Numbered from the stretch's first letter, positions 5,160 through 59,332 are shown. The stretch: DNA of 64,000 bases from an uncultured Bacillota bacterium (GCA_946407495.1 CAMJOB010000001.1:9549-73548); one strand, 5' to 3'. The notes: generated from the sequence alone by a model not told the origin. A program made the numbers and translations.

Positions 5160-5381
5160 ATGGAAGAAAAAATATATTTCATGCCAGGAGACATAGTAAG
5201 CTTGAAGTAGGATATTCCTAACAAGCCTACTATGCTTGTGGTTAAAAAGGAAACCTATATCTTTAAAAATCAAAAAGATAAATAGGATAATGGTTTAATG
5301 GGAATTCGTTGTAGATGGTTCGCAAATGATGGAACTCTACAAGAAGCAATTTTTAATACAAAAGATCTTATAAAACTATGA
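5160..5381 (+). CDS. DUF2158/YodC-like small protein (73 codons, two in-frame TAG at 5208 and 5283)
   Basis: MPGDIVSLK-x-DIPNKPTMLVV ... GIRCRWFANDGTLQEAIFNTKDLIKL matches YodC family pattern; ATG overlaps upstream stop, TGA overlaps next ATG. Confidence 0.55.
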
Positions 5382-7120
5382 TTAACTATTTTCAACAAGG
5401 AGGACAAGTTGCTGATGAAAAGCAACAAATGCAAGAAATGTTTATGCAGTATCTTGCAGAAAAATATCAAACAGAAGATATAAACGCATTAGTTTAGCAA
5501 TTATAGTCAGAACCAGGTGAAACAGGTGAAACTAAATTAGAAGATGAATTAATCTCATTTCAATAGATGTTACAACAAGGTGGACAAGCACCATTAATGG
5601 CAGAAAAAGGAGCAAAATTAGATTATATTAAATCACTTAAAGGATTTTGTCCAGACGGAACACAAGTTGAATATTATAAAAATGGTAAGAAAATTTGTGG
5701 TAAGTGTATTGCTAAACAAGAAAATGGTGCTAAAATGAACCAGAAGAAATTCTTTACTCCAGCTGATGTTCCATCTGCTTGTAAAGGAGGAAAAGCTAAG
5801 AAATCTTGCAATGGTGCTAAACTTACTAAGAAATGTAAAACAGGTGGAACCATAGAATTTTTTCAAAAAGGAGGAACTCCTAAACTTCAAACTATAACTG
5901 TTGATGGTAAACAATATGGTCGTTATAAAGCTGGACAGCAATGGAGAGAAGTAAATAATGGTAAATTAGGTTCTGCTAAATACGATATTCGTAATGGTAA
6001 AGCACAAATCTTATTAACTAAGGCTGCTAAAGAGCGTGAAGCAAATGAATCAACTGTAGTAAAAGCAAGTGGTGCAAATGCTAAAAACGCTAAATATGGT
6101 AAAACATATAGAGGTGGAGTTTATGCAAATGCTGCATCTCAAGCTGAAGCTGAGAAACGTGCTATTAACGATAAAGTACAATATTACGATTATAACGGTA
6201 AAGTTTATAAAACTAAGTGGAATGATACTCCAACTGCACAAGGTGTAATTGATAATAGAGTTGAAATGGCTGGTCTTTACGGAAACGACTTAGGTTGGCG
6301 TAATTCTGGACGTTATAATGCTAAATCTAGACAGCATCGTAATAATGAAAGAATTTCTGCAAACGGAATGTCTGATGCACAATTTAATGCACAAATTGAT
6401 GCACAAAGACAACAACAATTTGCTGATCAACATAACGCAGAACTTGCAGATAGAGATTTAGCAAAACGCGCAATTGCATCTGAACTTATGGATGCTTCTA
6501 CAGCAGGTTTAGCACGTGGATTTAATCCATTCGGATATACAAATGATATAGTTAATGGAAATTATGGTTCACTTGCAGGTAGAGGTGTTGAAGCAGGTCT
6601 TACTCTCGCTGGTGGATCACTTATGCCTAAGATTCCTGGTATGCACAGACTTGGAAGATATTCTGATGTATTAAGACTTAGTTTAAATAAAGGATTTGAC
6701 AAAGTTGATAATTTCTTATGGAATGGTGTTCCTCAAAAAATTGTAAGTTGGGGTGGACGTTATATGCCAAAGAATAATGGTGGCTTTGTTAGAACTTATT
6801 TTGCTGAACCTTCAATGAGAACAGGTTTAGAAAATGCTAATCCTGTTGATTTAACAGTTAATATTGGAGGTAAGATGGCTAAAGGTGCTGTTGAAGGTGC
6901 TAAAAATGCTGGTAGCAAGATTGGAACAAGTCTTTCTGAGTTTGGACAAGATGTTGGTGCATTAGGTAGACAAATTGGACAAGGAGTTAGTAACACTGGT
7001 GCTAAAGTTAAAAACGCTTGGGTTAATCATCCTGATGATGTTATGTTAGGTGCTGGAGTTATAGTTCCTTCAAGTACAGCAGTTGGAATAGCTGGATATA
7101 ACTATTTTAATAATAAATAA
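5378..7120 (+). CDS. hypothetical Gly/Lys-rich protein (580 aa) with three QQGG-type motifs and Cys pairs; 3 TAG in first 80 codons, none after
   Basis: frame 2 continuous from ATG 5378 through TAG 5537, 5546, 5603 into ORF 5567..7120. Confidence 0.5.
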
Positions 7121-7127
7121 TTGAATT

Positions 7128-7712
7128 ATGCAAAAGATCTTTGTATACAATAATGGAACAGGACAAATTGAATTAAACATTCCTGAAATAATTTTAATTG
7201 ATGAATTTCATGCTTTGATGGATAATAAGAGAAATGTTTGTAAAGAAGATCCTGAAGGTATTCAACATTTAAGAGCATTTAGAGAATTTACTTATATTTG
7301 GTTAGCTATTGATTGGTTAAGTTTATATAATGATTATTCTAATCAAGAAAGACACCAAGAAGCATTAAGAGATTCTCAATTAACTGAAGAAGAATTTAAT
7401 GATCCTATATTTAGAGCAGCTTGTAGAAAATATCGTGAATTACAAAACTCAACACGATCAATTAAACTTTTACAAGCTGCTCAATTAACAGTAGATAAAT
7501 TTATTGACTACTTTACTAATATAGACCCAGAAGAAAGAGATCCTCAAACTGGAAAACCTATATTTAAAGTAAAAGACATTATGGCAGAAATGTCTAACCT
7601 TAGTAAAGTGTTAGAAGAATTGAAAATTTTAACTGACCAAGTTAAGAAAGATACACAAGCTGAATCTAAAATTAGAGCAGGAGCAACAGAAGGATATACT
7701 CCTAATTTTTAA
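7128..7712 (+). CDS. hypothetical protein directly upstream of TerL (terminase small subunit candidate by position only)
   Basis: ORF 194 aa, no TAG, TAA stop 2 nt before TerL ATG. Confidence 0.3.
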   Translation: MQKIFVYNNGTGQIELNIPEIILIDEFHALMDNKRNVCKEDPEGIQHLRAFREFTYIWLAIDWLSLYNDYSNQERHQEALRDSQLTEEEFNDPIFRAACRKYRELQNSTRSIKLLQAAQLTVDKFIDYFTNIDPEERDPQTGKPIFKVKDIMAEMSNLSKVLEELKILTDQVKKDTQAESKIRAGATEGYTPNF

Positions 7713-7714
7713 TT

Positions 7715-10117: not shown

Positions 10118-10361
10118 ACAAGAAGTTATTGATATAGTTGAAGAATTATATGAATGTAAATTTATAGGTAAATTAAAAGTTACAGCATTAGATCCTGTTG
10201 GATATTCTGTAGCAATTGATTTATTATAGGGTGAAGATCCCATATTTATCACTGCAGAATTTCCTCATGATAAATTCTTAAAATTCTTATGTGAAGAATT
10301 AAGAATGAGAACTTTAGATAGAGTACAATTATTTGGTTTATATAAAGTATTTCCTAAATGA
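10074..10361 (+). CDS. small hypothetical protein (95 aa) overlapping TerL 3' end in another frame; one TAG (10227); TGA overlaps portal ATG
   Basis: frame 0 ORF from ATG 10074 through TAG to TGA 10359-10361; acidic helix-rich. Confidence 0.3.
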
Positions 10362-24363: not shown

Positions 24364-24735
24364 ATGAACGATATACGAAAAACTTTAATGTTATTAAAAA
24401 ACATAAACAAATACGGAATATTCGCATTAACTTTAATATGTATTATATATTGTGGTTTAATGTATTTTGGATATGATTATTTTGGTATCCATTTAGCTTT
24501 ATTCGGATTTGCTTTAGGTTTAAGACTAACTTTATCAAAAGTATTTGGTTTATGTTGGGTACATAGATTATGTATTATTTATATATTTCTTATATCATTT
24601 TGCGTAGCAACATTAAGACATAATATATTTAATATATTAGGCGTAGATATAAAATTAATAGAAGGTTTGTTATTTGGAATAGGACTATTACTTATTCCAT
24701 TAACGTTTTGGAAACTTAAAAACAAAAATTGTTAA
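24364..24735 (+). CDS. small polytopic membrane protein (about 4 TM, 123 aa), GtrA-like flippase candidate
   Basis: hydrophobic segments; KYGIFALTLICIIY ... LSKVFGLCWVHR loosely resembles GtrA-family pattern; size matches. Confidence 0.3.
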   Translation: MNDIRKTLMLLKNINKYGIFALTLICIIYCGLMYFGYDYFGIHLALFGFALGLRLTLSKVFGLCWVHRLCIIYIFLISFCVATLRHNIFNILGVDIKLIEGLLFGIGLLLIPLTFWKLKNKNC

Positions 24736-24738
24736 ATT

Positions 24739-25536: not shown

Positions 25537-25552
25537 TATTATTAATATAGAT

Positions 25553-25590
25553 AAGTTTGCTAGTATTTCTAGCAAACTTTTTTAATTTTA
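25553..25590 (+). terminator. rho-independent terminator
   Basis: perfect 11-bp stem aagtttgctag/ctagcaaactt, loop tattt, then ttttttaatttta. Confidence 0.55.
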
Positions 25591-25597
25591 TATATTT

Positions 25598-31519: not shown

Positions 31520-31531
31520 AATGTAAAGAAA

Positions 31532-32665: not shown

Positions 32666-32679
32666 AAATTAATTAAATT

Positions 32680-42900: not shown

Positions 42901-43507
42901 AATTAGGGATAAACAAAGAAGTGATTTAGAAAATACTCTTAAAACATTAGGTATTCCAGTAAATAATATCAAATTTAAATCAGAAACTAATCTTTCTGAA
43001 TATTTAGAGATAAATGATTCTGTTACTTTTAGTACACAAGTTGATAATGTTGTTAGAGAAGGATTAGCATTAAAATCATTCGATAAAAATATTTTAGTTA
43101 AAACTTGTCAAGGTTTGGTTTATACTTTACCTAAAACTAAATCTTTAAATGAATCACATATTTATGGAATTAAGAATAATTCTGAGTATACTGATTTATC
43201 AGCAATCCATTTAAGTAATTATGATGATTATTATAAGATTTTAAATAACTTATCTTATAATGAGCAAAACGGAGTAATTAATTATTCTGGATATTTATCT
43301 GAAAATGGAAATAACAATCTAAGTCCTTCTTATATAGATATATTAAAATTAGATGAAGATAAAACATTAGTAATAGACCTTGATAAATATAGACGTATTG
43401 CAAACAGAAGTTGGGATATTAACAACTGTGGTCGATACAGTGTAACTAGAATACAAGGAATATCTAGTAAGTTCTCATTCTCTAAATTATTAAATGTATT
43501 ACGCTAA
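39926..43507 (+). CDS. large tail-associated structural protein (1193 aa); single TAG at codon 3
   Basis: ATG 39926 overlaps upstream TGA (ATGA); atg aat TAG gca...; continuous with ORF 39965..43507. Confidence 0.5.
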
Positions 43508-46500
43508 TGAATTATAAATAGATATTAAATGAACCATTAAATTTTAAATTCCAAGCTAAGACTTTACCTACTAAGGGAGTCTTAGCATGGGAATATAATC
43601 CATTTAGAAATTATAGACTTACTAAATGTAATAAATTTAAATATAATGATAAATATTATACTCTTGAAGAAATAGAAGATATTCTATCTATAACTATTGG
43701 TGGTGATACTAATCTTAAACCAGAATTTGGATATAATAGAACTAGACATAATGTAGAAAATACCGATCCTCAAAAATGGTATACTTGTGAATTATCGGAA
43801 GATAAAAATCATACTACATTATTAAATGAAGTTCAAGATGTTCTTGATATTGAGTTATATGAAAAAGGACAATTAGTAGATTTTGAAACGGATGAATTAG
43901 AATTTGATTTAAAACATCCTGTTGATATAATCGCTCAAGAGTCTTATGATAATTCAGTAAATCTTATAATTAATGATGGAAAGAATATACCTAGATTAAT
44001 TAATTCTCGTTTTTCTCCTACTGAAAAGAATCATTATCAAATAGTAGATAGAAAAGGAGATAATGATACAAACATATATGATTAGGGAGATCAATTTGAT
44101 ATTGATACTTCTCTTTATAAACGTACTATTAAAATACCAAAACTAAAATTTGATGGTGTTTACCCTGGTGGTAACTTAGGAGTTGGAAACTATCATTTCT
44201 TTTTTAAATATATTGATTCTGATGGTAATGAAACAGATTGGATTGCAGAATCTGGTTTAGTTTCAGTATTCTTAGGTAATACTCCACAAAGTATTGATAG
44301 TGGTTTTGGAAATTAGAATAGTAAAAAATTAATTAAATTTACTTTAACTAATATTGATTCTGCTTATAATTATGTAAAAGTTTATTATAGTAAAGAAACT
44401 TCTGGATTTAATCAAGAAGCACAAACAACTTGTTATGAAATTGAACATAAATATATAGTAGATAAAAACAATACTTGTAATATAACAATATCTGGATTTA
44501 TTAAGGATATTGAAGTTTCAGAAGATGTAATTAATATGCAATATCAACTTGTATCATCTGTTGAAACACAAACAGTTTGTAAAAATATGTTATTTTTAGG
44601 TAACGTTAAAAAACCAGAAATTCCATATAAAGAACTTACTGATTTATCTTTAAGATTTTTACCAAAACGTTCACTTATTGATTATAATTTAAGTATTGAT
44701 TCTCAATATAATATCAATAGTAGTTCAGAAGGATATTATGATCCTGAATACATATATAATTATACAGGTTATTGGAATGATGAAATATATAGACTTGGAA
44801 TAGTTTATATTCTTCCTGATAATTCATTATCTCCAGTATTTAATATAAGAGGTGGATATAATATTGATGAAAATTCAAAATATTCATATGAACCTCTTTA
44901 TAAAAATGGAGTTAGAAATTATTTAACAATATCAGAAGATAATTATTCTATAATTTCGTCTAATAAGAATCCTATTAAGTTAGAAAATGCTAAAGGTGTT
45001 ATAACCTTAAAGACATATGATTCAAATAAAGGACCAAATGAAGAACAGCCTTATAAAATATATGGTATTAAAATAGAAATAGATAAACTACAAAAAGAAG
45101 AAGTTTTAAACGAACTTAAAAAATATACTAAAGGATTTTTCTTTGTAAGACAAAAAAGAATCCCTACAACATTATGTCAAGCTATATCTATTGCAACTGA
45201 TAAGCATAACTATTTACCTGTATTTCCAATTGGAAATAAGAAATCGTTATTTGTTAGTCAACTAACAGGTGTTTCTTACACTCAACCTAAAGAAACAAAA
45301 CTTAGTATATTTAAACAATTAACTGATGTTGGAACTGAAATTATAGATCCATACACAGGAACTACAAAACGTATTGCAGGTTCAGATAAAAACTTGGCTG
45401 AAGTTAGTTTAAAAGAAAATACAGAATATTATCTTGCTGAGTCATTTATTGATTCAAGAGATAGATATATAACAAATGATTTCTTTAGTAGAATTAGACC
45501 TATAGAATCATCTAAAGTAAAAGTTAATGCTGCGCTATGTCCAGAATTTGAACTTGATTAGACATTCTATGCTAATTTATTTACAGGTGACCAATTTGTA
45601 TTAAAGAAATCAGATATGCAACCACAAGGTTCAAGTCTATCTTGGAGTCAAGATGAAGAACGTAATTTCTATGTAGGAAAATACGTATATGCTAATGATA
45701 CAGTAGAATATAAATCTAAAATATTAGCTGTTCCAGATAGTTCTAAATTAATGGCTATTGATAAAGATAATTATAAAGGAACTGCTGGTAATTCAACAGA
45801 TGGTTGGAGATTTGATTATATAGCAAAAGAAAACAAAAAGACAGAAGCAACAAACTTTATTAGAGGTAATTGGGGACCATATTTAGGTGTTCAAAGTGCT
45901 ACTAAAAATAAAGTTTTAACACAATATGATATTAAAATTCCTGGATATAGTAAAAGTAAAATTCAAGAATACTTTAATGTTAGATATAGTGATAATTCTT
46001 CATTCTATCCTATTTCAGATAGATTAGAAATAAATGATTTTGGAGACAATTTTGTTTTATATAGAGGTGACTGTTACATATGTCAATTTACACATAGAAT
46101 GAACCGTAATTTCCAAGATCCAGCTGCACCTACTAATGATGATATTGTAAATCCTAAATGTTGGAAAGAAAACTATTCTGTTAAAGACGGAGTAATTGAA
46201 AAACATAAGTTTGCTAATATTAACATTGGTGATTTAAATGCAGTAAGATTAGGAACATGGGTTACATTTACAGTACGTTCTACTAAGAATTTATGTATAC
46301 GTGGTGTAGATGATAGTCATTCTGATGAAAAAGCATTAATAGGACACGGTCGTGGTTTTTATCCTCGTTATAAAATAAACTTAGATGGTTCTTATAAAAC
46401 ACCAGAATCTTCATACTTTAATAAAGGATTTCAAAAGGAATTTGGTGTTAAAAAATACATAGAAGCTGCTGATGTACCTGCAGAAAAGAATGAATTTTCA

Positions 46501-48777
46501 AGTAGAATTTTATATTCAAACCCTGCATCAAATGATTCTTATACAAATAACTTTAGAGTATTCGAATTAGGACACTTTAAAGATTATTCTAAAGAATATG
46601 GTTCTATTACTAAATTAGTAGAATCAAATGGTTCAATACTTATTGTATTTGAACATGGAATAGGTAGTCTTGCAGTTAATGAAAAAGCATTATTACAAAA
46701 TATTCAAGGTGATGATGTTTATATAGGAGCTAATAAAGTAATTGGTGAACCAAGAATTATTTCTGATAAATTTGGTAGTCAATGGAAAGAAAGTATTGTT
46801 AAAACTCCACATTACATTTATGGTGTTGATACAGTTGCTAAGAAAATATGGAGAGTTGGAATAGATTCTCCAAATGTAGAATGTATTTCTGATAAACGTA
46901 TACAACAATTCTTAAATCAAAATATTATATTAAGTGAACGTGAATTAATTCCTATTATTGGAATTAGAAACGTTAAATCTCACTATAATGGATTTAAAAA
47001 TGATGTATTATTTACATTCTATGATAATCTAAGAGGATTTGAAGAAAAAGTATGGAATATATGTTGGAATGAGATTACTTAGAATTGGACAACTCTTTAT
47101 TCATGGGTTCCTTCTTATTCTGAAAACATATTTAATCAGTTCTTTACTTTTGATAGAAATACATCTAAATGGATTGCTAAATTAGGAATTAGTAATTGTA
47201 ATTCTGATTTTGCTGATGGTATCACTTTAGACAATAATATTATTGATGATAGTTCAGAAAATTACCAAAATTTGGCACTTTACAACAGAGATGGAATCGA
47301 ATCTGAAGAAATCCATGTTGGACTATTAACTTTATCAAATAGGGACTTAGAAGACGATTATATAGTAGAATATACATTAGAAAGAGATCCATTCGGTAAC
47401 TATAAATATTTCGCTGTAGATGATGGTACAATTCACATTATTGACGAAACAGGAAGAAGAATATTAACTGAAGATTATATTGGTGATACTTATGATGAAG
47501 AAACAGGAGATAGTGATTTAATTACAGAACCTGTTGATTTAACACATGGTAAACCTTGGGCAGTTGTTCAAAAATATAAACTACCAGATGATTATCCTTA
47601 TCCTGTAATATTACTTAATATTTCAGCAAAAGTTGTATCTGCTAAAAATGAAAATAAAACATTATTAAATAGCACATTAGTAAAAGAAAATTATTATAAT
47701 AATACTATTGCTATTTGTTTAAAATCTGTTTATGATAATGGAAATACAGTACCTTATGATGAATCTAAACCATCATTAATGAGTGCTTTCTGGAGACATG
47801 GACAAGCTGGCTTACAAGATATTGCTGAAAAAATTAAACCTTGTCATTGGTATGGTAAACAACATCCATTTGAATTTGAATTCTGTGTAAATGAAAACCC
47901 AGAACTTCAAAAAGTATTTGATAACTTACAAATTATATCAAATAATGCAGAGCCTGATTCATTCCATTATGAAATAATAGGAGATGGTATAGAATTTGCT
48001 AATGACAAAAAGAATATGTATATTCGTCAAGAATCTACAAAAGAATTATATCAATATAATGGAAGTGATATTCTTTACAACGATGATTGGAAAGAACTTG
48101 AAAAAGATGGAGTAAAACAAAATCCGAAATCTACAATCTTACCACAAATGTATGAAGCACGTCAAGATACATTTAATGAGATTGAGGATCAATATAAGAA
48201 AATTACTTCATCTAATAAAAACTATGATGAATTAACAGGAACCGAAGTTACTTATGATAAAGTAACTGGAGAATATGGTTTATGGGTTCATAGTAAAGCC
48301 ATTGATGTAAATAGTGGATCTGGAAATAGATTAAGAGGTAATATGCAGTATAGAAATGATAATTGGAAAGTTCAAATCTCTCCTATTAATTTCGTACAAA
48401 AGAACGAAAATGAAGGTTTAGACGAACAAGGAAATATCATAAATTCAACTTGGAAGAATGGTAAAGTACCTATTAGTATTGCTAATATTCCAATTCCTGC
48501 CAATATTACTAATTATGATTTAGATATTCCAGAATCTTTAAAAGATAAAGAAATAGATGTTGATTCTTGGGGAGATTTACCTATAATTCAAAATGTAGAA
48601 CGTAAATCTAATGATGGAAAAACTACTTATACTTATGAAGTTGGAAATCCTGACTCAAAATGTACGAGACAGCAAACTAAAATAAGAGATAAATATGTGC
48701 GAATTAGAATACGTTATTCAGGTGAAAAACTTGCTTTAATTCGTAAAATAATCACTATATATTCACAATCATTATAA
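43507..48777 (+). CDS. giant tail-associated structural protein (1756 aa); TAG at codons 5, 193, 270, 685, 1192
   Basis: frame 1 continuous from ATG 43507 (TAATG overlap) through ORFs 44536, 45616, 47272 to TAA 48775-48777. Confidence 0.5.
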
Positions 48778-48778
48778 T

Positions 48779-51466
48779 ATGAATGATAGATTAAACATAA
48801 ATGGGAGAAATCCTTGGGTTTCTCCCAATTATAACCCTTGGCTTAATTCTGATTATAGTTGGATTGATTTTTAGCAATTTAATGATGTAACTAATAATTT
48901 TGATGCAATCCCAAATTATTCTTCTTATTTTGATGAATTAGAAAAATCTAACGAAATAGGAAATTCAATTGCAAATGTTGGATAGACTATTGCTGATTAT
49001 TTAAAAAAGAATCAAGAAAAGAACACACCTTTAGTTAGTTCTGCACCTAAAATTGATATATCTAAATCTTCATTAAAGAACTTTGATGAAAATAACTTTA
49101 ATGGAGTTAATGATTTTAATAAACGTGCAAATGATAGAGGTGTAGTAAAACAACAATCAGATGTTATTACAAACCCATCAATGTTTAATGTTGGATTTAC
49201 TCCTAATAAAACCGATACTTTTAAACCTAAATTAAGTGGAGGTGATATTAATAAAATGATAGTAAATCCTAAATCAGCAGCACCTATTAATGGAACAATT
49301 AATCAAACTAATAATGGAATAACTGAACAAGTTAATACACAAATTGATTAGGTTGGTCCAAATAAAGGTATGCTTAATGGTAAATATATTGGTGTAGGTC
49401 TTGAAGCAGCTAAAGCAGCAGGAGTATCATTAGGAAATGAAACCGCAGATGGTATTGTTTCTTCTGGTATTAATAACTTAAGTAACGGAATAAACGGAGA
49501 TAGTTTATTAGATACAGGTATAGGAGCTGTAAGTAGTATGCTTGGAACATCTGATAATTCAGTAGTAAGAGCTGGTGGATAGCTTTTAAGTTCTGGTAGA
49601 AGTGCTTTAGAAAGTGTTAAAGCACTTAAAGCTATAAATGCTGCTAAAAAAGCTGGAGATGCTACTAAATTAGCAAATCTTGGTGGTAATATGGCTAAAG
49701 CAAGTAATATTGCTAATATAGGTGGTATAGCCGCTGGTGTTTTTGATACTGCATTATTTGGAAATAGTACACCTTCTGAATATCAAGGTGTAAAAGGTGG
49801 TATTACACAAGGTCTTGATACAGCATATGATGCTATACAAGCAGGTGTTAGTACATTAGGACCAGTTGGTACTATTGTTTCTGCGGCTATGGCTGCATAG
49901 AAATTAGGAGGACACGCACTTAAATCAATAGGTGGTGGTACAGATGGTATGACAACTATTGATGCTATTCTTGGTTCATCTTTCTTACAAGGTACTCCAT
50001 TAGGAGCCATTAATGGATTTGGTGGTAGTTCTACAGCAAGGTTTACTAAAGATTCAGATATATTTAGTAATATAGGTGGATCTTATTTAGGTTCTAATGC
50101 TTTAGCAGATGAAGTTGAGCCTTACGCTGGTAAGAAGTTTGGATTATTCTCAAGAAGTCAAAGAAATAAATGGGAAAATAAAATTCAAGATATTATTGGA
50201 CAACAAAGAATACTTGCGAGTATTTCTAAAGAATCAGAAAGAGCTAAAACATTGCAACAAACAATGTCAGGAGCTGAAGCTCAATCTCTTAATAATTTAC
50301 TTAATGGCGGTTATAGAGATATAGTATTTAGTAAAAAAGGTGGTTTATTAAATTTATTTGGAGATAAATTAAGTAGAGCACATAGAATTATTATACAAAA
50401 GACTATAATAATTGAGCCTAAAGAAGAGAAAAAAGAAAATAAAACTGAAAACGTAATTCCAGAAGGTGCTTTACACGCTAATCTTCATCATATGGATGTA
50501 AAGAACATTACTAAAAAAGGTGTTCCTGTAGTTGATACAGATGGAGAATAGCAAGCAGAAATAGAGCGTGATGAAATTATATTTAGATTAGAAGTAACAA
50601 AATTACTTGAAAAATTAAAAGCGGATGGAAGTGATGAAGCAGCTATTACTGCAGGTAAGCTACTCGCTGAGGAAATATTATATAACACAGAGGATAGAAC
50701 AGGACTTCTTGAAAAGTTTAAACAAGGAGGAGAGATTTAGATTGCTTAGGAAGGAACTAAATTAAATCCTAAATCTATTGTAGATTTCGATTCTTTCCAA
50801 AAATATTTAAAAGAAACGGGACGATTTGCTCCTGATTTCGATTATCAAGGATTTTATGATGATGAAGAATTAAGAGCAAGATGGTTAGAAGAAGAATTAT
50901 CTAATCCTGGTAATGCTCATATGAATGATTATTATAAACTTCCTCAACATCATACTTATTCTAAAGAATCAAAAGGTGGTAAAGATTTTGGTGGAGAATG
51001 GTTAGGAAATGATGAAGTAGGTTGGATGTTTAAAGCATCTCCATTTAATATGGCTCAACATTCATTTGAAGATATGAAGAAATATTGGGATAATAATGAA
51101 CCAGAAGCTGTATTATGGTATGGAAATGATTTTTACAAAGCTAAACCTAAGCAAGAAATAGAAACTCTTGAATTTAAACAAGGAGGTTCTTTAAATGTAA
51201 TACCAGATGGTGCTCTTCATGCAAGATTACACCACATGGATATAGATAATATAACTAAGAAAGGTATTCCAGTTATAGATAATGACAATAATCAACAAGC
51301 TGAAATTGAATTAAATGAAATAATCTTTAGACTTGATGTTACTAAGAAACTTCAAGAACTAAGAGAAAAGAATACGGAAGAAGCAGAGATCGAAGCTGGA
51401 AAATTATTAGTAGATGAAATTTTAAATAATACAGATGATAGAACAGGTTTAATACAAACAATTTAA
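48779..51466 (+). CDS. Gly-rich virion/ejection-like protein (895 aa) with C-terminal tandem GALHAxLHHMD domain repeats; 8 TAG
   Basis: frame 2 continuous through ORFs 49370, 49691, 49949, 50921 to TAA 51464-51466. Confidence 0.5.
50452..51463 (+). repeat. protein-level tandem duplication of a ~95-aa domain (K[KQ]GG.LN.IP[ED]GALHA.LHHMD..NITKKG.PV.D...QAEIE..EIIFRL.VTK...EL......EA.I.AGKLL..EIL.NT.DRTGL)
   Basis: two copies, 50452-50735 and 51170-51463, diverged at DNA level. Confidence 0.55.
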
Positions 51467-51482: not shown

Positions 51483-51935
51483 ATGGCTAATAAATTAAAA
51501 TTAATTCCAAAAGCATAGAGAGGAGCAGTTATTCCTAATGGAAGAGAAACTTTACCAGCAGGATTAACTTTAGAACAGTATCTTAACGCAAAAGATCAGT
51601 TAATGAAACTTTACGGAGCATCTGAAATGAATCCTATTTATGGTTCTCGTAAAGGTGATGATACTATTGAACAAGCTGTTAACTTTATTGGAAGACAAGC
51701 TCCAGCTGCAGCTCCAACAACACCAACACAGCCATCAGCAACTGTGCAGACTCCACAAAGTAATAGTAATCTTCTTAATTCATTTAAATTAATTGCACCT
51801 AAATTTGCTGAATTAAAAGGAACAGACGCTGCTCCAATTCAAGCAAGACCAGGTGGAAATCAAGAAAATGATATTCAGCGTGAAGCAAGATTAAGAGCAC
51901 AAAATTCTGAACTTGGAAGATTCTTCACTCATTAA
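51483..51935 (+). CDS. hypothetical protein (150 aa); TAG at codon 12
   Basis: ATG 51483 frame 0 continuous into ORF 51603..51935. Confidence 0.4.
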
Positions 51936-51943: not shown

Positions 51944-52534
51944 ATGATAAACATTAAAATAGGCAATAAATCCTATAAGGTTGAAGAATGTAAAACTGAA
52001 GAGGAAAGAGAAAAAGGTTTACAAAATGTAAAAGAATTACCTGAAGACGAAGGTATGTTATTTTATCACAATCCTCCAGAGGATGTTGCTTATTGGATGG
52101 AAGATACATATATACCACTTGATATAGTTTTTATAAATGATGATCAAGAAGTAATAAGTGTAAAACAAGGTAAACCTCTATCTCTTGATTATATTGAAGA
52201 AAAAGATGTAGCATACGTACTTGAAGTTAATGCAGATTCCGGAATTAAACCAGGAGACGAACTAAAATTTGAAGGAGATGAAGTAGAAGGTATCATGAAA
52301 GTTCTTGCACCAGATGGTTCAGTTCAAATGTGGCTTCAAGGCGGAGAAAGAATCGTATCTCGTAGAGAAACAAAAATTCTTATCAAAAAGGCTAAAAAAG
52401 CTGATAAAAGTAAAGATGACAAGGATTACAAGGCTCTCGGTAGATATATGTTCAAAGTTTTAAAAGGTCAAGATGAAAGACCTATAGAATATGTAGAATC
52501 TAATAACGAAGATGGTAAAAAATCGGAAGAATAA
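51944..52534 (+). CDS. DUF192-family protein
   Basis: GMLFYHNPPEDVAYWMEDTYIPLDIVFINDDQEVISV...AYVLEVNADSG matches DUF192 (COG1430) pattern. Confidence 0.5.
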   Translation: MINIKIGNKSYKVEECKTEEEREKGLQNVKELPEDEGMLFYHNPPEDVAYWMEDTYIPLDIVFINDDQEVISVKQGKPLSLDYIEEKDVAYVLEVNADSGIKPGDELKFEGDEVEGIMKVLAPDGSVQMWLQGGERIVSRRETKILIKKAKKADKSKDDKDYKALGRYMFKVLKGQDERPIEYVESNNEDGKKSEE

Positions 52535-52643: not shown

Positions 52644-52973
52644 ATGAAAATATTATTTACAAACGGTAACAAAACTAAGAAATTCCAGCAAGGTGGAGAA
52701 GTTGCACCAGAAGCAGGTGGTGCACCAGTAGGAGCACCAGAAGGAGGAGCACCACAAGGTGGTGGAGAAGATCCAATGATGCAGATTGCTCAAATGGCTT
52801 TACAAGCATTACAAACACAAGATTGTAATGCAGCTATGCAAGTATGTCAAGTATTTGTTCAACTTCTACAGCAAGCACAAGGCGGTGGAGCACCTGAAGA
52901 AGCACCTGCTGAGGAAATGGGAGAACCTGTTTATCGCAGAGGTGGAACATTAGTAAAGAGAATTAAGAAGTAA
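52644..52973 (+). CDS. small protein with N-terminal KFQQGG motif, GGAP low-complexity and Gln-rich helix
   Basis: ORF track 109 aa; followed by terminator. Confidence 0.4.
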   Translation: MKILFTNGNKTKKFQQGGEVAPEAGGAPVGAPEGGAPQGGGEDPMMQIAQMALQALQTQDCNAAMQVCQVFVQLLQQAQGGGAPEEAPAEEMGEPVYRRGGTLVKRIKK

Positions 52974-53022: not shown

Positions 53023-56000
53023 ATGGCTCAAGTAAAGAAATTTTAGCAAGGTGGTTCCGTTAATTCTAACCTTTTTGACATAGGAGGTAGAAATGTAAAT
53101 AAAAATGATTTTATTTACTTAGCTAAAAAGAATTGGAACACCTTCAAATCAAATTATAATATCTCAGGCGATGATGCTGTTGATGCTGATAATGCTTTTA
53201 ATAAAGTATTACAAAGTATCGAAAGAGGAGATATTAGTTCAATGGGTGAAAATGGAGAATTATTCGATAAGACAGGTACATTATCAAATAATTCAGACCA
53301 GAAAAACTCTTACGGTAAAGCAGCTCAATATTTATGGGAACTTGGCGTAGGAATGGACACCTATCAAGAAGATAATAAAAAGAAAGGACTTAAATACGAA
53401 GATACAAGAGGAGCTTTAGGTAATATCATTAATAATAGTTTTTATGGTGGTAATTATACAGGCTCTGACCAAGATATTAAACTTTGGCTAAATCAAGATG
53501 CTGTTGATGCTAACGGAGTTCGTTCTAGAGTTAATAGAATGAATGCTTTAGCTAATTATTTAGAAAAATTAAAAGCAGATGTAAATACACAAGATATTGA
53601 TTATGAAGGAAGTAAATATAAAGATAAAAATGAAAGACTTTCTCATATTGATAATGCTATATCTCTTCTTAAAAAAGGAGAATATAACGATAATGTATTA
53701 CGTGCTTTAATGGATGTTGGTGATATGACAAGTACTCAAGCAATGTCATGGTTAGCTGATGGTACAGAACAATCAACTCAACAAAATCCAGAAGAACCTG
53801 CTCAACTTTCTGATGATGACAAAATAAAAGTACTTGCTAAACAATTAATGCAAGAAAGACCTGGTGTTTCATTAGAAGATGCTACTTCTTTAGCAACAGC
53901 TAAATTCAATCGTGATAAACAACAATCTCAAGCTCAAATCAGAAAAGAAATTCAAGACATCAACTTTAATAATTGGTTTGATGAAGTTTCTAAAGATTTC
54001 CAAGCAACTAATTTTAGTTTACACGATCCAAAATATAGTTTAAACTATTATAAAAATACTGATGCACCAAATTTCGGAATACACGATACTATCATTGATA
54101 AGTATGAACAATTAATGTCAGGTAAGAATAGATCTTTTATTGACTATTATAAAGTGGCAAATTCAGGTGTTAAACATAGACTTAGAGCATTACTTGATAT
54201 AGAATCTGAACGTGCCGAAAGAGATGGTTTTACAAAAAATCTTAGAAAACTTGGAAACGGTTTATATGCTTTAAGAGGATATACTCGTTATAATAACGGA
54301 TATGCTTGGGTATATAATAGTAGAACAGGTGATTTAAATAAAATACAAACTAAATCAAATCCATATTTGTTTGAAGAAAACGAAAAATGGTGGACTACTA
54401 ATAATGCTAAATATAAGCAAGGTGGTATTCTTTTTGCTCAACAAGGTGCAAGTATTAGAGAAATTCTCGCAGAAGAAACAAAAAATGCTAGACAAGCAAG
54501 ACAAGATAAAATTAAAACTGCATCAAAAGCTCAAAATAGACCAGAAGAAGCAGTAAAGAATGGTTCTAAGAAAGCGAATAGTTTAGGTGAAGCATATGAT
54601 AATATGAACACTGCAAATAAAGTTAGATTCTATTCTGCTGTTGGTGATTTAACAGGTGCTGTTGCTTCTTTTGTACCAGGTTACGGAAATGCAATTTCTT
54701 TAGGTCAAGGTATTATATCTGATGTTGCAAGAGCAGGTGCTGATATTTCAGAAGGATATTCAGCAGGTGATGTAGCTTGGAATTTTGCTAAAGGTTTAGG
54801 AATGACTGCTATTGGAGCTATTCCATTAGTAGGTACAGGAACTAAATTATCAAAAGCATGGAAAGCAACAAGAGCATTTGTTCCTTGGGCACTTAGTATT
54901 GGTGCAACAATGGGTGATGTAAGTGCTGCAGAACAAGCATATAAAAATATAGAATCTGGTAAAGGTACAGTTGATGATTATATGGCTATGGTTAAATTGC
55001 TAACAAGTGTTTCTAATACAACAAAACTTGGAAGTAGTACACTTAAAGCAAGAGCTATTAAAAATGCCACAAAAACTAATAATACTGAAATTACTATTAA
55101 AGGTAAAAAAGGTAACATTAAATTAAATCAACAGCAATTAGACAAATTAAAAACAGCTAAGACTCAAGATGAAATGAACCAAATGATTAAATCAATGGGA
55201 CATAATGATGAAATAGCATTTAGTCGTAATGTATTTGGTGAAAATCTTAAGCCTACAGATGCTGGTCGATTTGGAAAATCAGCTAGAGTAACTAAATCTC
55301 CAGTATATGATTTTAGTTTAGTTGCTAATAATTCAATATATAGAAAAGGTCCTGTTTCAGAAGTCGGAATGATGCAAATGAATGTAAATCGTCCATCTTG
55401 GTTACATTTACCATCAATTGGTTATAAACCTACTACTGTTACAAAATCTGCAACACCTGTTGTAGCACCTAGTGTAACACCTACAAGAGTTGCAGCTTTA
55501 CCTAATTCTCCATTACGTTCTAATACTCCATCACCAATTCCTCCAGCAACACGAATGATAGGAAGAAATAATAAACTAACAATTGGTGGATATAAAAAAG
55601 GAGGACGTATAGAACGTCTAATTGAAAAATATCAAGCAGGTGGTAAAACAGTAAAACAATATGGTTTACCAACAGATGATATTTGGAACGCTGTAATATA
55701 TGATTTAGATAATCGTTATCGTAATAACTTTACAAATGATACTGATTTTGATTATGTAAATCGTAATATTGATGTTACAGATAAAGTAAGTCCTAAAAAC
55801 AATCTTTATGATGTAGAAGGAAATAAACCTTATACAGATCCTAAACAATTAGAACTTTATCATAATCAAGGTAAATTAGTTGAAGATAGAAATAAAAACT
55901 TTTATAAACAATTATTAACAAACCCTGTTCTTGCTGAAAAGTGGGCACGTGATTATTTAAAATATAATCATTCTACTACTCATGGTAAAGAATGGTTTGA

Positions 56001-57423
56001 AAAGAATAACATTATTAAAGACGGCATTTTTAATTTTGGTAATTTTGTAAATGCTAAATATAATGGAAATCGTTTATGGGAAGACCATTTAAATGCAACA
56101 GGACATGATGTTTATAAAGGTAAAGTTTATTATATTGAAGGACAAGATGGTTATTATGGAGATAAATTACCAGAAGGATATAGGATTGATCCTACTGATC
56201 AAGGTATTGATGTTGAAAATGGATTAATAAGAAAGTATAAACTTATTAAAGATCCAACTCAACCACAACCTAATCCACAACCTACTCCACAACCTCAAAA
56301 CAAACAGTCAGTAATAACTCCTCCTACTAAGGAAGAAGTTCAACCTACTACAACAAATCCTTCAGTAGTTCAACCTAAATCTAATTTTGATCCAACTCGT
56401 TTAGGTGCTGATGCACTTGCATTAAGAACAGCACTTGATACTATTAGAACTAATAATTTATTAGCTGATAGAGCTTTAGGAAAACAACTTCCTTTAAAAA
56501 ATCCTAATAGTATGGTTGCTCCAACTGCTGATGTTTATAATATCTTAGCAAATGGACAACAAAACGCTGGACAAATTAATACACAAGGTCGTCAAGCACA
56601 AAATAGTGTTGCTAATACAGAAACAGGTCTTTTAGCAAGACTTCATGCTGCAAGAGATGCTACTAAAGTAAAACAAGAAGCAGGTCTAAAAGCAGATGAA
56701 AAACGTCAAGCATATGCTGATAAGGCTGTTGAAGTTGGAAATTACAATCACGCTCAAGAAGTTGAAACAGGTAATTTTAACAACGGTCAACTTGTTAATA
56801 AAAAGAATATGGACATAGATATTCTTAACGGACGTGATGCAGCTAATTTACAAGTTCGTTCTGCATTAAGTGATAAATATGAATTAGATTTAAGACAAAA
56901 ACTCGCTAAGGCTGAGGCTAAACGAGATATGGAAGAGCAAAAAGCTGAGTTAAAGAAAGAACAAATTGCTGATATGCAAGAACAATGGAATCAAAGACAA
57001 GTTCAATTGTTAACAAATTATCATATGAATGTTGATCCAGCTTATGTAAAAGCACGTAGAGGTTATGAAGAAGCTGTTAAAAATAAAGACACAGCAAATG
57101 CTTCTAAATATAAAGCGGATATGGATGTTATTGCAAATAAGTATAAAGTAGATGCTTATAATCAAATGGGACGATATAGTGCTAATAGATATGGAGTAAA
57201 TTGGAATGATTTACAAATATCTAAAAATCCTTATTCATATTCAATGCCTACTAAGAAAGCAAAAGGTGGAACAATTTATGATAATATATTCAAGGCTCGA
57301 CTTGATGACAATAGAAGATTTGATAAAAGAATTTCAGAATCTATAAAAACTACTTAGAAAGCAATTGGAGATAGCAGTGCTATCACAAAAGCTATTCTTA
57401 ACAAGTTAATGAGTAAGTGGTAA
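53023..57423 (+). CDS. giant virion/cargo-like protein (1466 aa) with N-terminal KFQQGG motif (Q encoded by TAG at codon 8)
   Basis: ATG 53023 frame 1 continuous through TAG 53044 into ORF 53242..57357, through TAG 57355 to TAA 57421-57423. Confidence 0.5.
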
Positions 57424-57424
57424 T

Positions 57425-59332
57425 ATGATAAAATTTTTACAATCTGGAGGTGGTTTACCACCTTTTCAATATTATAGACCAGTAACGGTCACAACTCCTA
57501 GTGGATCAGTAGCACAACCTCAAAGTGCTACTGCATCTACAAAGGAAACAAAATCTGATGCGTTAACTGATAAAGATGTTCTTAAAGCATTAGATAAAAT
57601 AGATGGACTTCCTTCAGATATGTCCGTTCTTAAATCAGGTTTAGTATCTGCATTAGGTACAGATTCTGGTTTTAGTATATTCGGTTCATCTGATAGTCTT
57701 TTTGGTAGTATCAATCAAATTGCAACTCAATATGCTGATACTTTATTAGGAATTAAAATTGCTAATTTTAGTAAAAAGAAATATGATGATATTAAAAAGA
57801 CACTTGACCAAAATGGCGGATTGAATGAAATTGCCGTTACAGATTCTGGAGGAGTATTAGTAACAGATAGGGACGGAGAAATATCTCAAATTTCTATAGA
57901 TACTTATTTATAGAATAAACACAGATACAAGGCTCTTACTAATTCAAATATTCTTTATATGAGAGCCTATAATCCAGACTATGCTAACAATGATGCTTTA
58001 ATGGATATAGCATCAAATGGTATTGGTCTTACTGAAATTAATAAACAAATTAAAGGAGCACTTGGAAGTCTTGGTCACGATGATAATACAAGAGAATCTT
58101 ATACTGTTATAAAAGGTGTAGAAGCACTTAAAGAAATATATAATAAAACAGGTGAAATAAAACCTGAAGGATTATATAAAATTAAAAATGCTACATCTAC
58201 TCAAAGAGATCAAGCACAAGCAGCTATCAATTATATATGGAATATGTTACCTGAAAACTCTAAAGCAGTTCTTAAATTGAAGTCAGGTAGTGAACAAGAT
58301 GCTAAACTTCTTGTTGCTAATTTTGTTGCTTCTGGAACTACAAGCAAACAAGATTATGGAGAAAGCTATATTCTTGATGCTGAGGGTAACAAACCAGGTG
58401 CTAAGAAAGAAGGCGAAGGTGGTGAGAAAAATGAATACAAACCAGGAGTTGTTTCTAATTTCATTAGAGGTAACGGTAAGCCTTCATCTTTTGTAATAAT
58501 GAATGGAACTACAGATGGTTTAGTTGTTCAAGGTATAACTTCATCATTAACAAATAATTCTGGTAAAATATTAGGAGCTTCAAGTTTAGCTACTATTAAT
58601 AAAGGTGGATATAATGGAGTTCTTGATTGGAATAATGTTAGTATGGGTGGAGTACCTATATCAGAAGCACATTTATCTGAATTAATGTGTACTGATGGAC
58701 GTATAACTTCTATTGATTTTCCTATTGATATAGCGGAAAAACAAAAAGGAAATATTGTTCCTAATTATGAAATGTTTGCATTAAAAGAAAAAGCTGATAG
58801 AGAAATAAAGGCTGCAAACTTAGAAGAAAAACAAGATTATGATTCAATTAATGCTATATATGCTAAATACAATCTTCCTACTAAATATGATGCAAGTGGT
58901 AATTTAATTACAACTCATTGGGCAAGATTTGGAGTTATGCAAGGTGTTGCATTAAGTAAAGCATTTGATGATGATCAATCATTTAATGATTTATTAAAAG
59001 AAGTTTCAGATAATGAATTAGAAAGTTACTTAAAGTTATTCAATAATGAAGCACACATTAGCGGTTCACAACAAGAATTAAAAGGAAAAGATATTGAATT
59101 TGATAAATCAAGTTGGTGGGATAAAATGTGGGGTAACGGACAACATTGGTGGTCTACACATGATCAAATGTTTAAAGGTACTATATTTATTCCAATTGTT
59201 GTTGATGAATTTGCTGCTATGGCGGGTGATGATAGTCATACCAAAATAGATGAAAATGAAAGAATAGCTGGTTTACAACAAGATCACGATTTACAAGAAA
59301 CAACTTAGTTACAAGGTCGTCTTGATGAATAA
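57425..59332 (+). CDS. virion/cargo-like protein (635 aa) with N-terminal KFLQSGGG motif; 2 TAG
   Basis: frame 2 through ORFs 57425 and 57959, TAG 57911 and 59306, TAA 59330-59332. Confidence 0.45.

What the first reader, a model, noticed from the sequence alone, without database searches (positions are those of the whole stretch)
5378..57500. Recurring [FL][KQ]QGG peptide motif near the N-termini of multiple virion/cargo-like proteins
The motif occurs in at least five genes, near the N-terminus in the first three and in front of each GALHAxLHHMD domain copy in the fourth: 5378 gene (YFQQGGQV at residue 5, also MLQQGGQAPL and FFQKGGTPKL), 52644 gene (KFQQGGEV), 53023 gene (KF-Q-QGGSV with the first Q encoded by TAG), 48779 gene (FKQGGEI, FKQGGSLNV and KKGGLLNL), and a looser KFLQSGGG in 57425. 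A shared short N-terminal signal in proteins that are otherwise unrelated is reminiscent of capsid-targeting or portal/scaffold-recognition peptides of packaged internal proteins, or of a common processing site.
Basis: seen in the sequence. Interest (0 to 1): 0.65.

Follow-up and report, generated by a model that had tools for sequence, protein, structure and literature searches.

The report
Shared short motif on crassvirus cargo proteins
A short peptide (aromatic residue, K or Q, any residue, Gly-Gly, then a hydrophobic residue two positions on) recurs at the ends and domain joints of several otherwise unrelated proteins encoded next to the tail "muzzle" gene of a divergent gut crAss-like phage; it is conserved across hundreds of relatives and is most likely a common docking tag for proteins carried inside the virion, a feature I could not find described.

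Summary
[FYLM][KQ][KQ]GG occurs 9 times in the window's proteome against 0.25 expected, with none in the other five reading frames. A matrix trained only on non-window sequences finds 10 hits, all in the same four genes. Codons differ between copies, so selection acts on the peptide.

The window is a TAG-to-Gln recoded, deep-branching crass-like phage. Most motif genes lie between the muzzle gene and the giant polymerase-like genes, where crAss001 encodes its cargo proteins.

The motif keeps its position in orthologues of about 40-60% identity:
- 115 of 120 homologues of the 109-aa protein have the N-terminal KKFQxGG.
- 117 of 120 have the C-terminal YR[RK]GG, usually followed by exactly 8 residues.
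- 115 of 127 representatives of the "GALHA" domain have the motif exactly 7 residues upstream.

AlphaFold models show the motifs as low-confidence or hairpin-like segments tethered by Pro/Ala/Gly/Glu linkers.

The best reading (confidence about 0.45) is a shared docking or targeting peptide for internal ejection proteins. It is analogous to encapsulin targeting peptides or the T4 capsid-targeting sequence.

A Gly-Gly cleavage site is the main rival. It is weakened by Pro directly after GG in 38% of copies and by the absence of a protease gene in the window. Function remains untested, and I found no published description.

The parts
43507..48777 (+). Crassvirus muzzle (MUZ) protein gene. Context marker: the main motif-bearing gene block starts immediately downstream.
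   Evidence: Pfam PF25731 crAss_MUZ 3.9e-23 and PF25729 crAss_MUZ_C 2.5e-7. The order MUZ, then a motif-bearing protein, holds in L005, L006, L007 and L022; in L021 an assembly gap follows MUZ.
48779..51466 (+). g48779, 895 aa, in the position of cargo protein C1. It has a Gly/Ala-rich hydrophobic middle, three motif copies and two 'GALHA' domain copies.
   Evidence: Translation. 339 homologues found by word search. 1477 clusters at 50% identity carry the GALHA domain. Hydrophobic segment at residues 353-373.
50327..50344 (+). Motif copy FSKKGG (residues 517-522 of g48779), about 40 residues before the first GALHA block.
   Evidence: Kept as FSKKGG or FSKQGG in homologues.
50465..50497 (+). 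First GALHANLHHMD block.
   Evidence: Invariant P-x-G-A-L-H-A in alignment A1.
50717..50731 (+). Motif copy FKQGG (residue 647), extended form FKQGGEIQIAQEG, following the first GALHA domain.
   Evidence: (23.1 bits).
51173..51187 (+). Motif copy FKQGG (residue 799), 7 residues before the second GALHA block.
   Evidence: 32.9 bits, the best hit. The same 7-residue spacing occurs in 115 of 127 family representatives.
51209..51241 (+). Second GALHARLHHMD block.
51483..51935 (+). g51483, 150 aa, with a degenerate N-terminal copy KLIPKAQRGAVIP at 51504-51536.
   Evidence: The orthologue in L002 reads LIPRHQRGGFVVP.
51944..52534 (+). DUF192 protein with no motif. It is a conserved neighbour of the motif genes.
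   Evidence: PF02643 4.6e-24. Matches PDB 3m7a and 3pjy, both of unknown function. Adjacent in L005, L006, L007, L021 and L022.
52644..52973 (+). g52644, 109 aa. N-terminal KKFQQGG (52683-52697), a Pro/Ala/Gly/Glu linker, a helical hairpin core, a second linker, and C-terminal PVYRRGGTLVKRIKK (motif at 52932-52946).
   Evidence: AlphaFold2 model: helices 44-58 and 61-78; residues 23-35, 39-42 and 84-89 below pLDDT 50; short hairpin strands flank RRGG.
53023..57423 (+). Large protein (1466 aa from the ATG at 53023; an upstream ATG at 52999 is also open). Motif copies: N-terminal KKF-Q(TAG)-QGG at 53041-53055, YKQGGILFAQQG at 54412-54426, tandem YKKGG at 55591-55605 and YQAGG at 55630-55644, and a near-C-terminal KKAKGGTIY at 57253-57279.
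   Evidence: Orthologues keep the N-terminal copy in 5 of 9 genomes, counting the window. The internal [YHWF][KR]xGG[IV][LI]xA[QKR]xG is kept in 8 of 9. The near-C-terminal copy is also kept.
57425..59332 (+). g57425, 635 aa, in the position of cargo protein C2. N-terminal MIKFLQSGGGLPPFQYY (motif at 57431-57454).
   Evidence: All 8 orthologues begin M-x(1-6)-[KEQ]-[LMF]-[QA]-x-GG.
5378..7120 (+). g5378, 580 aa, two genes upstream of the gene taken to be the large terminase. Motif copies at 5390-5404 (YFQQGG), 5570-5584 (MLQQGG) and 5861-5875 (FFQKGG). It also has a Cys-rich segment and a C-terminal hydrophobic segment (residues 555-573).
   Evidence: Only three close homologues exist and all keep the copies present in their span. 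Unrelated proteins at the same position in L010 and L019 carry YYKQGGRLCRKC.

Best explanation
The motif is a short, autonomous docking peptide. Its consensus is [IV]-x-x-[FYH]-[KQR]-x-G-G-x-[ILMVF], probably a mini beta-hairpin with Gly-Gly at the turn.

It is shared by a set of internal virion (cargo or ejection) proteins of this crass-like lineage. Copies sit at N-termini, at C-termini and between domains. They are usually separated from folded parts by flexible linkers.

I infer that each copy becomes ordered only when it binds a repeated site inside the particle. Candidates are the portal wing, the tail-barrel rings, the muzzle, or the inner face of the HK97-fold shell. Binding would recruit these proteins during assembly and hold their ends in register for ordered ejection.

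Shown: the motif is non-random, selected at peptide level, positionally conserved, confined to the cargo gene block in a 121-kb relative, and tethered or poorly ordered in monomer models.

Inferred: that it binds a partner, and which partner.
For: 1. Enrichment and restriction.
- 9-10 copies against 0.25-1.4 expected, all in 4 of 42 proteins, none in other frames.
- In the 121.6-kb relative MT835492, 6 of 11 loose-pattern hits fall in four adjacent cargo-block genes. The other five are scattered singletons, which matches the chance expectation of 4.2.

2. Positional conservation at low overall identity.
- Small protein: 115 of 120 have the N-terminal F-Q-x-GG and 117 of 120 the C-terminal copy. 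Five of the six invariant alignment columns lie in the two terminal motifs.
- The 620-645-aa protein has an N-terminal copy in 8 of 8 orthologues.
- The large protein keeps its internal copy in 8 of 9 genomes.

3. Tethered-peptide architecture.
- The motif is followed or preceded by Pro/Ala/Gly/Glu-rich low-complexity linkers.
- AlphaFold2 gives a helical core with linkers below pLDDT 50 and a hairpin at YRRGG-TLV.
- The motif plus GALHA segment is below pLDDT 50 although it is the most conserved part of the domain. That pattern is typical of segments that fold on binding.

4. Fixed geometry.
- 7-8 residues from GG to the C-terminus in 113 of 117 homologues.
- Exactly 7 residues from GG to GALHA in 115 of 127 representatives.

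5. Context.
- Most motif genes follow the muzzle gene and precede the giant polymerase-like genes.
- crAss001 cargo protein C1 (gp45) is itself enriched in aromatic-x(0-2)-GG: 10 against 2.9 expected, reached by 10 of 5000 shuffles.
- C1 has a basic N-terminus followed by IFDTGG. Its two resolved segments start at or just after such motifs: 425-AFGG for the portal-bound domain, and residue 214 just after SAYGG for the tail-barrel segment (PMC10172136).

6. Precedent.
Encapsulin cargo of HK97-fold shells uses short Gly-containing targeting peptides at C- or N-termini. Family 2 cargo has Gly-rich motifs repeated between domains and at the very C-terminus, proposed as targeting sequences (PMC8346489).
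Against: - No binding partner is identified and no complex could be modelled.
- The giant polymerase-like proteins, cargo in crAss001 and taken as cargo here by position only, lack the motif. The tag is therefore not general.
- g5378 lies outside the cargo block and its virion location is unknown.
- Homology of g48779 and g57425 to crAss001 gp45 and gp46 was tested and not detected. 'Cargo' therefore rests on gene order alone.
- Low pLDDT is also what an ordinary flexible hinge would give.
- N-terminal copies (Q after the aromatic residue) and internal copies (K or R there) differ systematically. They may not share one receptor.
Confidence: 0.45

Rival explanations
1. Proteolytic maturation site. 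A phage or host endopeptidase cuts after Gly-Gly. This would remove short basic N-terminal leaders and the 8-residue C-terminal tail, and would split the large proteins into pieces. The analogues, cited from general knowledge, are adenovirus protease (M/L/I-X-G-G|X), the ASFV pS273R polyprotein sites (G-G|X), and host Prp cleavage of the shared N-terminal leader on staphylococcal phage 80alpha capsid and scaffold proteins.
For: - Gly-Gly with an upstream hydrophobic residue resembles known viral cleavage sites.
- Copies sit near N-termini and at domain junctions.
- The crAss001 C1 fragments seen in the tail and on the portal begin at or after aromatic-GG. Separate fragments would explain this as well as a single threaded chain does.
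- One relative (L007) encodes a weak retropepsin-like protein inside the block.
Against: - Pro follows GG in 44 of 115 N-terminal copies of the small protein. Most endopeptidases cut X-Pro bonds poorly.
- Residues after GG are conserved (hydrophobic at +2; TLVRRIKK), and tail length is fixed at 7-8 residues. A discarded peptide would not be expected to show this.
- Leaders can be as short as 4-5 residues (MIIKLQQGG, MINYFQQGG).
- Tandem copies lie 10-13 residues apart.
- No protease family was detected in the window apart from an M15 endolysin-type peptidase.
- The L007 retropepsin-like protein has a lipoprotein-type signal sequence, so it is probably exported.
Confidence: 0.2
2. A post-ejection epitope. 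After injection the motif engages a host envelope component, such as a periplasmic Tol/Ton-type protein, peptidoglycan or membrane. Alternatively, it drives assembly of the ejection proteins with each other into the trans-envelope channel. The analogue, from general knowledge, is the short Tol- and TonB-box epitopes in the disordered translocation domains of colicins.
For: - The motif proteins have Gly/Ala-rich hydrophobic segments like channel-forming ejection proteins (compare the crAss001 gp45 transmembrane prediction).
- The motifs lie in disordered, Gly-rich surroundings and in multiple copies.
- The split between N-terminal Q-type and internal K-type copies could reflect pairing between proteins.
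Against: - No host is known and no host partner can be named.
- The motif sequence does not resemble known TonB or TolB boxes.
- Strict conservation across phages spanning 40-100% identity, and presumably different hosts, argues for a phage-internal partner.
Confidence: 0.15
3. No common partner. The motif is a favoured local structural element, a beta-turn or hinge, spread by duplication of a short module among rapidly evolving, low-complexity virion proteins. Its recurrence would then reflect common descent of segments rather than a shared signal.
For: - In the GALHA family the motif is part of a longer conserved unit, F-K-x-G-G-x-h-N-h-I-P-[ED]-G-A-L-H-A.
- The large protein carries a partial copy of that unit (YKQGGILFAQQGAS), which suggests module shuffling.
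- Gly-Gly turns are common.
Against: - The terminal copies are the most conserved columns of the small protein, while its core and linkers vary.
- Copies in g5378, g52644 and g57425 have no flanking similarity to the GALHA unit.
- Spacing between the motif and GALHA is variable in some members, 5-21 residues or more. The motif is therefore separable from the domain.
- Fixed distance to the C-terminus implies recognition of a terminus.
Confidence: 0.15

Closest known systems
Cargo protein C1 (gp45) of Bacteroides phage crAss001 (Bayfield et al. 2023, PMC10172136)
   Same: - The gene lies directly after the muzzle gene.
- It has a Gly-rich hydrophobic N-terminal half and a basic N-terminus followed by hydrophobic-x-x-GG (MAKKKIKRRGKMPPNIFDTGG).
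- It has repeated aromatic-GG motifs: 10 against 2.9 expected.
- Its structured segments start at or after such motifs (425-AFGG on the portal wing; 214 after SAYGG in the tail barrel).
   Different: - No detectable sequence or profile homology to g48779 (hhalign probability below 1%; no PDB hit).
- In crAss001 the motif is looser (A-[FY]-x0-2-GG). Of the nine crAss001 proteins scanned with a loose pattern, only C1 shows recurrent copies.
- Here a sharper consensus is shared by five or six different proteins.
- Bayfield et al. do not discuss the motif.
Encapsulin targeting (cargo-loading) peptides (PMC8346489)
   Same: - Short conserved Gly-containing peptides are shared by unrelated cargo proteins of an HK97-fold shell.
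- They lie at the C-terminus or N-terminus, behind flexible linkers.
- In Family 2 cargo, Gly-rich motifs are repeated between domains and at the extreme C-terminus.
   Different: - The consensus differs (SDGSLGIGSLKRS, TVGSL, GPTGLGT against [FY][KQ]xGGx-hydrophobic).
- Encapsulins have no portal, tail or DNA.
- Binding to the shell is demonstrated for encapsulins and untested here.
Capsid targeting sequence of phage T4 internal proteins
   Same: A roughly 10-residue N-terminal sequence shared by otherwise unrelated internal proteins. It directs them into the prohead, and they are later injected with the DNA.
   Different: - The T4 sequence is removed by the prohead protease gp21 at L/I-x-E sites.
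- It is strictly N-terminal and single-copy.
- It has no Gly-Gly and no internal or C-terminal copies.
Gly-Gly viral maturation cleavage sites: adenovirus protease (M/L/I)XGG|X and ASFV pS273R GG|X (general knowledge)
   Same: A hydrophobic residue a few positions upstream of Gly-Gly, in several virion precursor proteins, both near termini and internally.
   Different: - The hydrophobic residue is at P5 here rather than P4.
- Pro is frequent at P1'.
- The downstream sequence is conserved.
- No clan CE cysteine protease, or any other protease, was found in the window.

Membership tests
Crassvirales-type virion module | Muzzle protein with the crass fold | tested here: met
   PF25731 3.9e-23 and PF25729 2.5e-7 on 43507-48777.
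Crassvirales-type virion module | Tail ring protein, P22-like portal and crass-type major capsid protein in the conserved order | tested here: met
   - CrAss_Ring_1 PF24228 1.9e-7 (38216-38911).
- Weak P22_portal match, 2.3e-4, below the curated cut-off (10358-12553).
- Capsid protein matches phrog_11589 at 8e-16 and is 20-24% identical to named Crassvirales capsid proteins.
crAss001 cargo protein C1 (gp45) family | Detectable sequence or profile homology to gp45 | tested here: not met
   hhalign probability 0.5% and 0.2%. phmmer and Foldseek against the PDB gave no crassvirus hit. Caveat: the gp45 profile has low diversity.
crAss001 cargo protein C1 (gp45) family | Gene immediately downstream of the muzzle gene; Gly-rich hydrophobic segment; repeated aromatic-GG | tested here: met
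   Gene order. Hydrophobic segment at residues 353-373. Motif copies.
crAss001 cargo protein C1 (gp45) family | Presence inside virions, bound to the portal wing and tail barrel | not testable with these tools
   Needs virion proteomics or cryo-EM of a cultured member of this clade.
Terminal targeting peptide of packaged cargo (encapsulin or T4 type) | Short conserved peptide shared by otherwise unrelated proteins, at a terminus, behind a flexible linker | tested here: met
Terminal targeting peptide of packaged cargo (encapsulin or T4 type) | Peptide is necessary and sufficient for incorporation and binds a defined site on the shell, core or portal | not testable with these tools
   No multimer modelling or experiment was available.
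Terminal targeting peptide of packaged cargo (encapsulin or T4 type) | Present on all packaged cargo | tested here: not met
   The giant polymerase-like proteins downstream (g59332 and orthologues, most of them cut at the locus end) have no convincing copy; the only loose match is MQNGG in L023.
Gly-Gly maturation cleavage site | A cognate protease encoded by the phage | tested here: not met
   No protease family in the 64-kb window other than an M15 peptidase. The rest of the roughly 180-kb genome was not available.
Gly-Gly maturation cleavage site | Residue after the scissile bond compatible with cleavage; downstream sequence unconstrained | tested here: not met
   Pro at +1 in 38% of N-terminal copies. 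Conserved hydrophobic residue at +2. Conserved 8-residue C-terminal tail.
Gly-Gly maturation cleavage site | Mature proteins begin after GG | not testable with these tools
   Needs N-terminal proteomics of virions.

The most novel reading that the evidence does not exclude
The motif is a two-flavour 'Velcro' code that pre-assembles the ejection apparatus.

N-terminal Q-type hairpins (KK-F/L-Q-x-GG on the small, large, C2-position and some C1-position proteins) would dock onto K/R-type hairpins (F/Y-K/R-x-GG, internal or C-terminal) of the neighbouring protein, or onto 12-fold sites of the portal or tail.

This would daisy-chain five or six cargo proteins in a fixed order through the portal and tail, so that they leave the virion as one thread. 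The 109-aa protein, with a tag at each end, would act as the bivalent connector. The always-adjacent DUF192 protein might act as loading chaperone.

An even bolder variant is that the conserved Gln and Lys are partners for an isopeptide cross-link.
Probability: 0.1. Interest if true: 0.85.

Novelty: new variant of a known kind. Interest (0 to 1): 0.6.

Why it matters
Crass-like phages are the most abundant viruses of the human gut. Their hallmark is a large load of proteins carried in the head and tail and injected before the DNA. How these proteins are selected, positioned and released in order is unknown, and no sorting signal has been described in the crAss001 structure paper.

A short, transferable tag shared by the smaller cargo proteins would give a directly testable handle:
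- tag-reporter packaging assays;
- peptide-portal or peptide-muzzle complex modelling;
- mutagenesis in cultured crassviruses, where C1 carries a looser version of the motif.

It would also provide a sequence rule for recognising cargo and ejection proteins in the many uncultured lineages where homology searches fail. Here none of the motif proteins hits Pfam or PHROGs. If the tag is sufficient for packaging, it could be used to load foreign proteins into phage particles.

Tried and rejected
1. GALHA domain as the portal-bound domain of crAss001 gp45 (residues 425-552). A by-eye alignment looked good (I-x-[ED]-G-x-x-H ... G-I-x-[IV]-x-[VI]-D ... E-x-x-E-h-h-[YF]). Profile comparisons gave probabilities of 0.5% or less, so the claim is dropped.

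2. g57425 family as homologues of crAss001 gp46 (C2). hhalign probability was 0.4%. Only positional analogy remains.

3. Fold identification of the GALHA domain. The AlphaFold2 model had mean pLDDT 64, and Foldseek against the PDB gave nothing below E = 1.

4. PHROGs and Pfam on all motif proteins gave no hits.

5. A metal-binding role for GALHAxLHHMD. Only the first His and the Met are invariant, so this is rejected.

6. A DNA-level repeat or Shine-Dalgarno-like artefact (CAA GGA GGA). Codons vary and many copies are GGT GGT, so this is rejected.

7. The capsid-protein segment FTFKGGEFIQG as a further copy. The L001 orthologue has FKNGEF, so it is not conserved and I treat it as chance.

8. 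The retropepsin-like gene in L007 as a maturation protease. It has a lipoprotein-type signal sequence and is absent from the window and other relatives.

9. Double-glycine bacteriocin leaders, GlyGly-CTERM, ubiquitin-like or Pup-like tails, and transglutaminase Q-tags (LLQGG). I considered these from memory. None fits the flanking pattern or the protein architecture, and none was tested.

10. Literature searches for the motif, for crassvirus cargo signals and for DUF192 function found nothing relevant.

Full report
**What the window is**

The 64-kb window has 29% G+C, and all long reading frames are on the + strand. Reading TAG as Gln fuses many fragments into long genes, for example 12550-18054 with 12 in-frame TAG codons.

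Pfam identifies a crassvirus muzzle protein at 43507-48777 (PF25731, PF25729) and tail ring protein 1 at 38216-38911. It gives a weak P22-type portal match at 10358-12553. PHROGs identifies the major capsid protein at 32680-34098.

The capsid protein is only 20-24% identical to those of named Crassvirales. It is 53-58% identical to two unannotated human-gut phage scaffolds. The 109-aa protein of the window occurs identically on contigs up to 181 kb. This is therefore a deep-branching crass-like phage with a large genome.

Yes.
- In the six-frame translation, [KQ][KQ]GG occurs ten times, always in the coding frame of four genes.
- Against residue shuffles of the 42-protein set (20,180 aa), [FYLM][KQ][KQ]GG is seen 9 times against 0.25 expected. 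None of 2000 shuffles reached that count.
- A 17-column matrix trained only on sequences from other phages recovers ten hits of at least 10 bits in the window. All fall in g5378, g48779, g52644 and the 53023 gene; shuffles give 0.2 hits.
- The matrix gives the consensus [IV]-x-x-[FYH]-[KQR]-[EKNQ]-G-G-x-[ILMFV].
- Codons differ among copies (CAA, CAG and TAG for Gln; GGA and GGT), so selection acts on the peptide.

- the C-terminal PVYRRGGTLVKRIKK of g52644;
- YKQGG, YKKGG, YQAGG and KAKGG in the large protein;
- a degenerate copy in g51483.

**Conservation**

Gene neighbourhoods from eight related phages show a conserved order (L001, L002, L005-L007, L021-L023). The order is: muzzle, a C1-position protein, a variable gene, DUF192, a roughly 100-aa protein, a 970-1570-aa protein, a 610-645-aa protein, then giant polymerase-like proteins. 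In L023 the last four form a cassette detached from the muzzle gene.

The motif keeps its positions in these orthologues.
- Among 120 homologues of the small protein, 115 have the N-terminal [KR]-K-F-Q-x-GG.
- 117 of the 120 have the C-terminal E-P-V-[YF]-R-[RK]-GG followed by 8 (90 cases) or 7 (23 cases) residues.
- Five of the six invariant alignment columns lie in these two motifs.

The 'GALHA' domain of g48779 is found in 1477 clusters at 50% identity. In 115 of 127 representatives the motif lies exactly 7 residues before G-A-L-H-A. Some members have the motif 5-21 or more residues away, or lack it. The motif is therefore a separable element.

N-terminal copies have Gln after the aromatic residue, preceded by Lys-Lys. 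Internal copies have Lys or Arg there, and C-terminal copies Arg.

In the 121.6-kb scaffold MT835492, the hits cluster in four adjacent cargo-block genes. The remaining five weak matches equal the chance expectation.

g5378 has only three close homologues, all of which retain the copies. Unrelated proteins at the same genomic position in relatives carry YYKQGGRLCRKC.

**Anatomy**

The small protein is the clearest case: motif, Pro/Ala/Gly/Glu linker, helical hairpin, linker, motif. AlphaFold2 with 66 sequences gives helices 44-58 and 61-78. The linkers fall below pLDDT 50, and short strands flank the RRGG turn.

In the GALHA domain model the motif-plus-GALHA stretch (residues 7-35) is below pLDDT 50, although it is the most conserved part. 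The rest forms a beta-hairpin and two helices.

g48779 has a Gly/Ala-rich moderately hydrophobic segment, and g5378 has a C-terminal hydrophobic segment. This fits membrane-active ejection proteins.

**Comparison with crAss001**

Bayfield et al. (PMC10172136) showed the following.
- gp45 (C1), encoded right after the muzzle gene, is cargo.
- Residues 425-552 bind the SH3-like wing loops of the portal in twelve copies.
- Residues 214-245 line the tail barrel.
- An N-terminal piece probably sits at the muzzle.

The gp45 sequence is enriched in aromatic-x(0-2)-GG: 10 against 2.9 expected, p about 0.002. It begins MAKKKIKRRGKMPPNIFDTGG. Its resolved segments start at A425-F-G-G and four residues after S-A-Y-G-G. 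Relatives of gp45 keep this N-terminal pattern and the AFGG-type repeats.

I could not show homology between g48779 and gp45, or between g57425 and gp46. The paper itself notes that the epsilon group lacks a detectable gp45 homologue. The link is therefore positional and compositional, not a family assignment.

**Mechanism**

The best-supported reading is a shared docking peptide. It would recruit and position a subset of internal proteins on a repeated site inside the particle. The supporting points are the terminal and linker-tethered placement, the fixed distance to the C-terminus, the multiplicity, the restriction to the cargo block, and the crAss001 precedent that ordered, partner-bound segments begin at such motifs. 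Encapsulin targeting peptides are the nearest known logic. They are short Gly-containing peptides at either terminus, and repeats between domains have been proposed for Family 2 cargo (PMC8346489).

Cleavage after Gly-Gly is the main rival. It is weakened by four observations:
- Pro at +1 in 38% of N-terminal copies;
- conserved downstream residues;
- very short leaders;
- the lack of any protease gene in the window.

Only proteomics can exclude it. A post-ejection host-binding or self-assembly role, and a purely structural hinge, remain possible.

**Novelty**

Full-text searches for crassvirus cargo signals, for the motif's context and for DUF192 function found no description. The concept of a shared terminal tag on packaged proteins is known. 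This motif is not: neither its sharp consensus, nor its multi-position use, nor its distribution over five or six cargo-block proteins in a large uncultured crass-like clade appears to have been described.

Noticed in passing
window 2259-4172: The PD-(D/E)XK-like nuclease gene (637 aa) carries a 337-aa insertion relative to the 300-301-aa orthologues in L010 and L014. The insertion lies between ...IMDWK and TNKKIDL..., contains a LAGLIDADG_3 domain and ends in ...VTHN. It is probably an intein with a homing endonuclease, although its first residue appears to be Gly rather than Cys or Ser.
   Followed up: partly
L021 about 6600-7400 (frame 2); P0030, P0032, P0033: Some homologues of the C1-position protein carry an intein (PF14890 and PF14528) inserted in the conserved GGGTDGM|TTxDAILGS segment. 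That site is at window 49931-49978 and is uninterrupted here. Inteins usually target functionally critical sites.
   Followed up: no
window-wide, e.g. 12550-18054 (12 TAG), 43507-48777 (5), 48779-51466 (8); none in 24364-27970 or 30807-34098: TAG is read through as a sense codon, presumably Gln, in many but not all genes. Relatives use it far more heavily, with up to 67 TAG codons in one gene of MT835492. L023 uses none.
   Followed up: partly
window 51944-52534 and orthologues in L005, L006, L007, L021, L022: A DUF192 (COG1430) protein of unknown function, lacking the signal peptide usual in bacteria, is a constant neighbour of the motif genes. It is a possible chaperone or partner.
   Followed up: partly
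L007 11688-12257: A 189-aa protein with weak retropepsin-like hits (Asp_protease_2, gag-asp_protease) and a lipoprotein-type signal sequence (MKYLLVLLLSLFIFSC) lies between the C1-position gene and DUF192 in one relative.
   Followed up: no
L023 1-9900: In one relative without TAG recoding, the small/large/612-aa/giant protein cassette is detached from the muzzle gene. It is preceded by NAD-salvage and nucleotide genes (NAPRTase, NAD synthase, CTP_transf_like, NUDIX, Thy1).
   Followed up: no
window 25598-27970: A 790-aa protein with two family-2 glycosyltransferase domains (a tandem duplication) lies inside the late gene block.
   Followed up: no
window 50732-51172 (g48779 residues about 652-798): The segment between the second and third motif copies is present or absent among close homologues (about 900-aa against 748-782-aa forms, such as P0005, P0008 and P0010-P0014). 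It is an indel-variable inserted domain flanked by motif copies.
   Followed up: no
L008 12778-13242 (phage cr53_1, Suoliviridae): The gene annotated 'protease' directly after the portal gene encodes a 154-aa protein with an HExxH-like HENIH motif. No counterpart was seen in the window.
   Followed up: no
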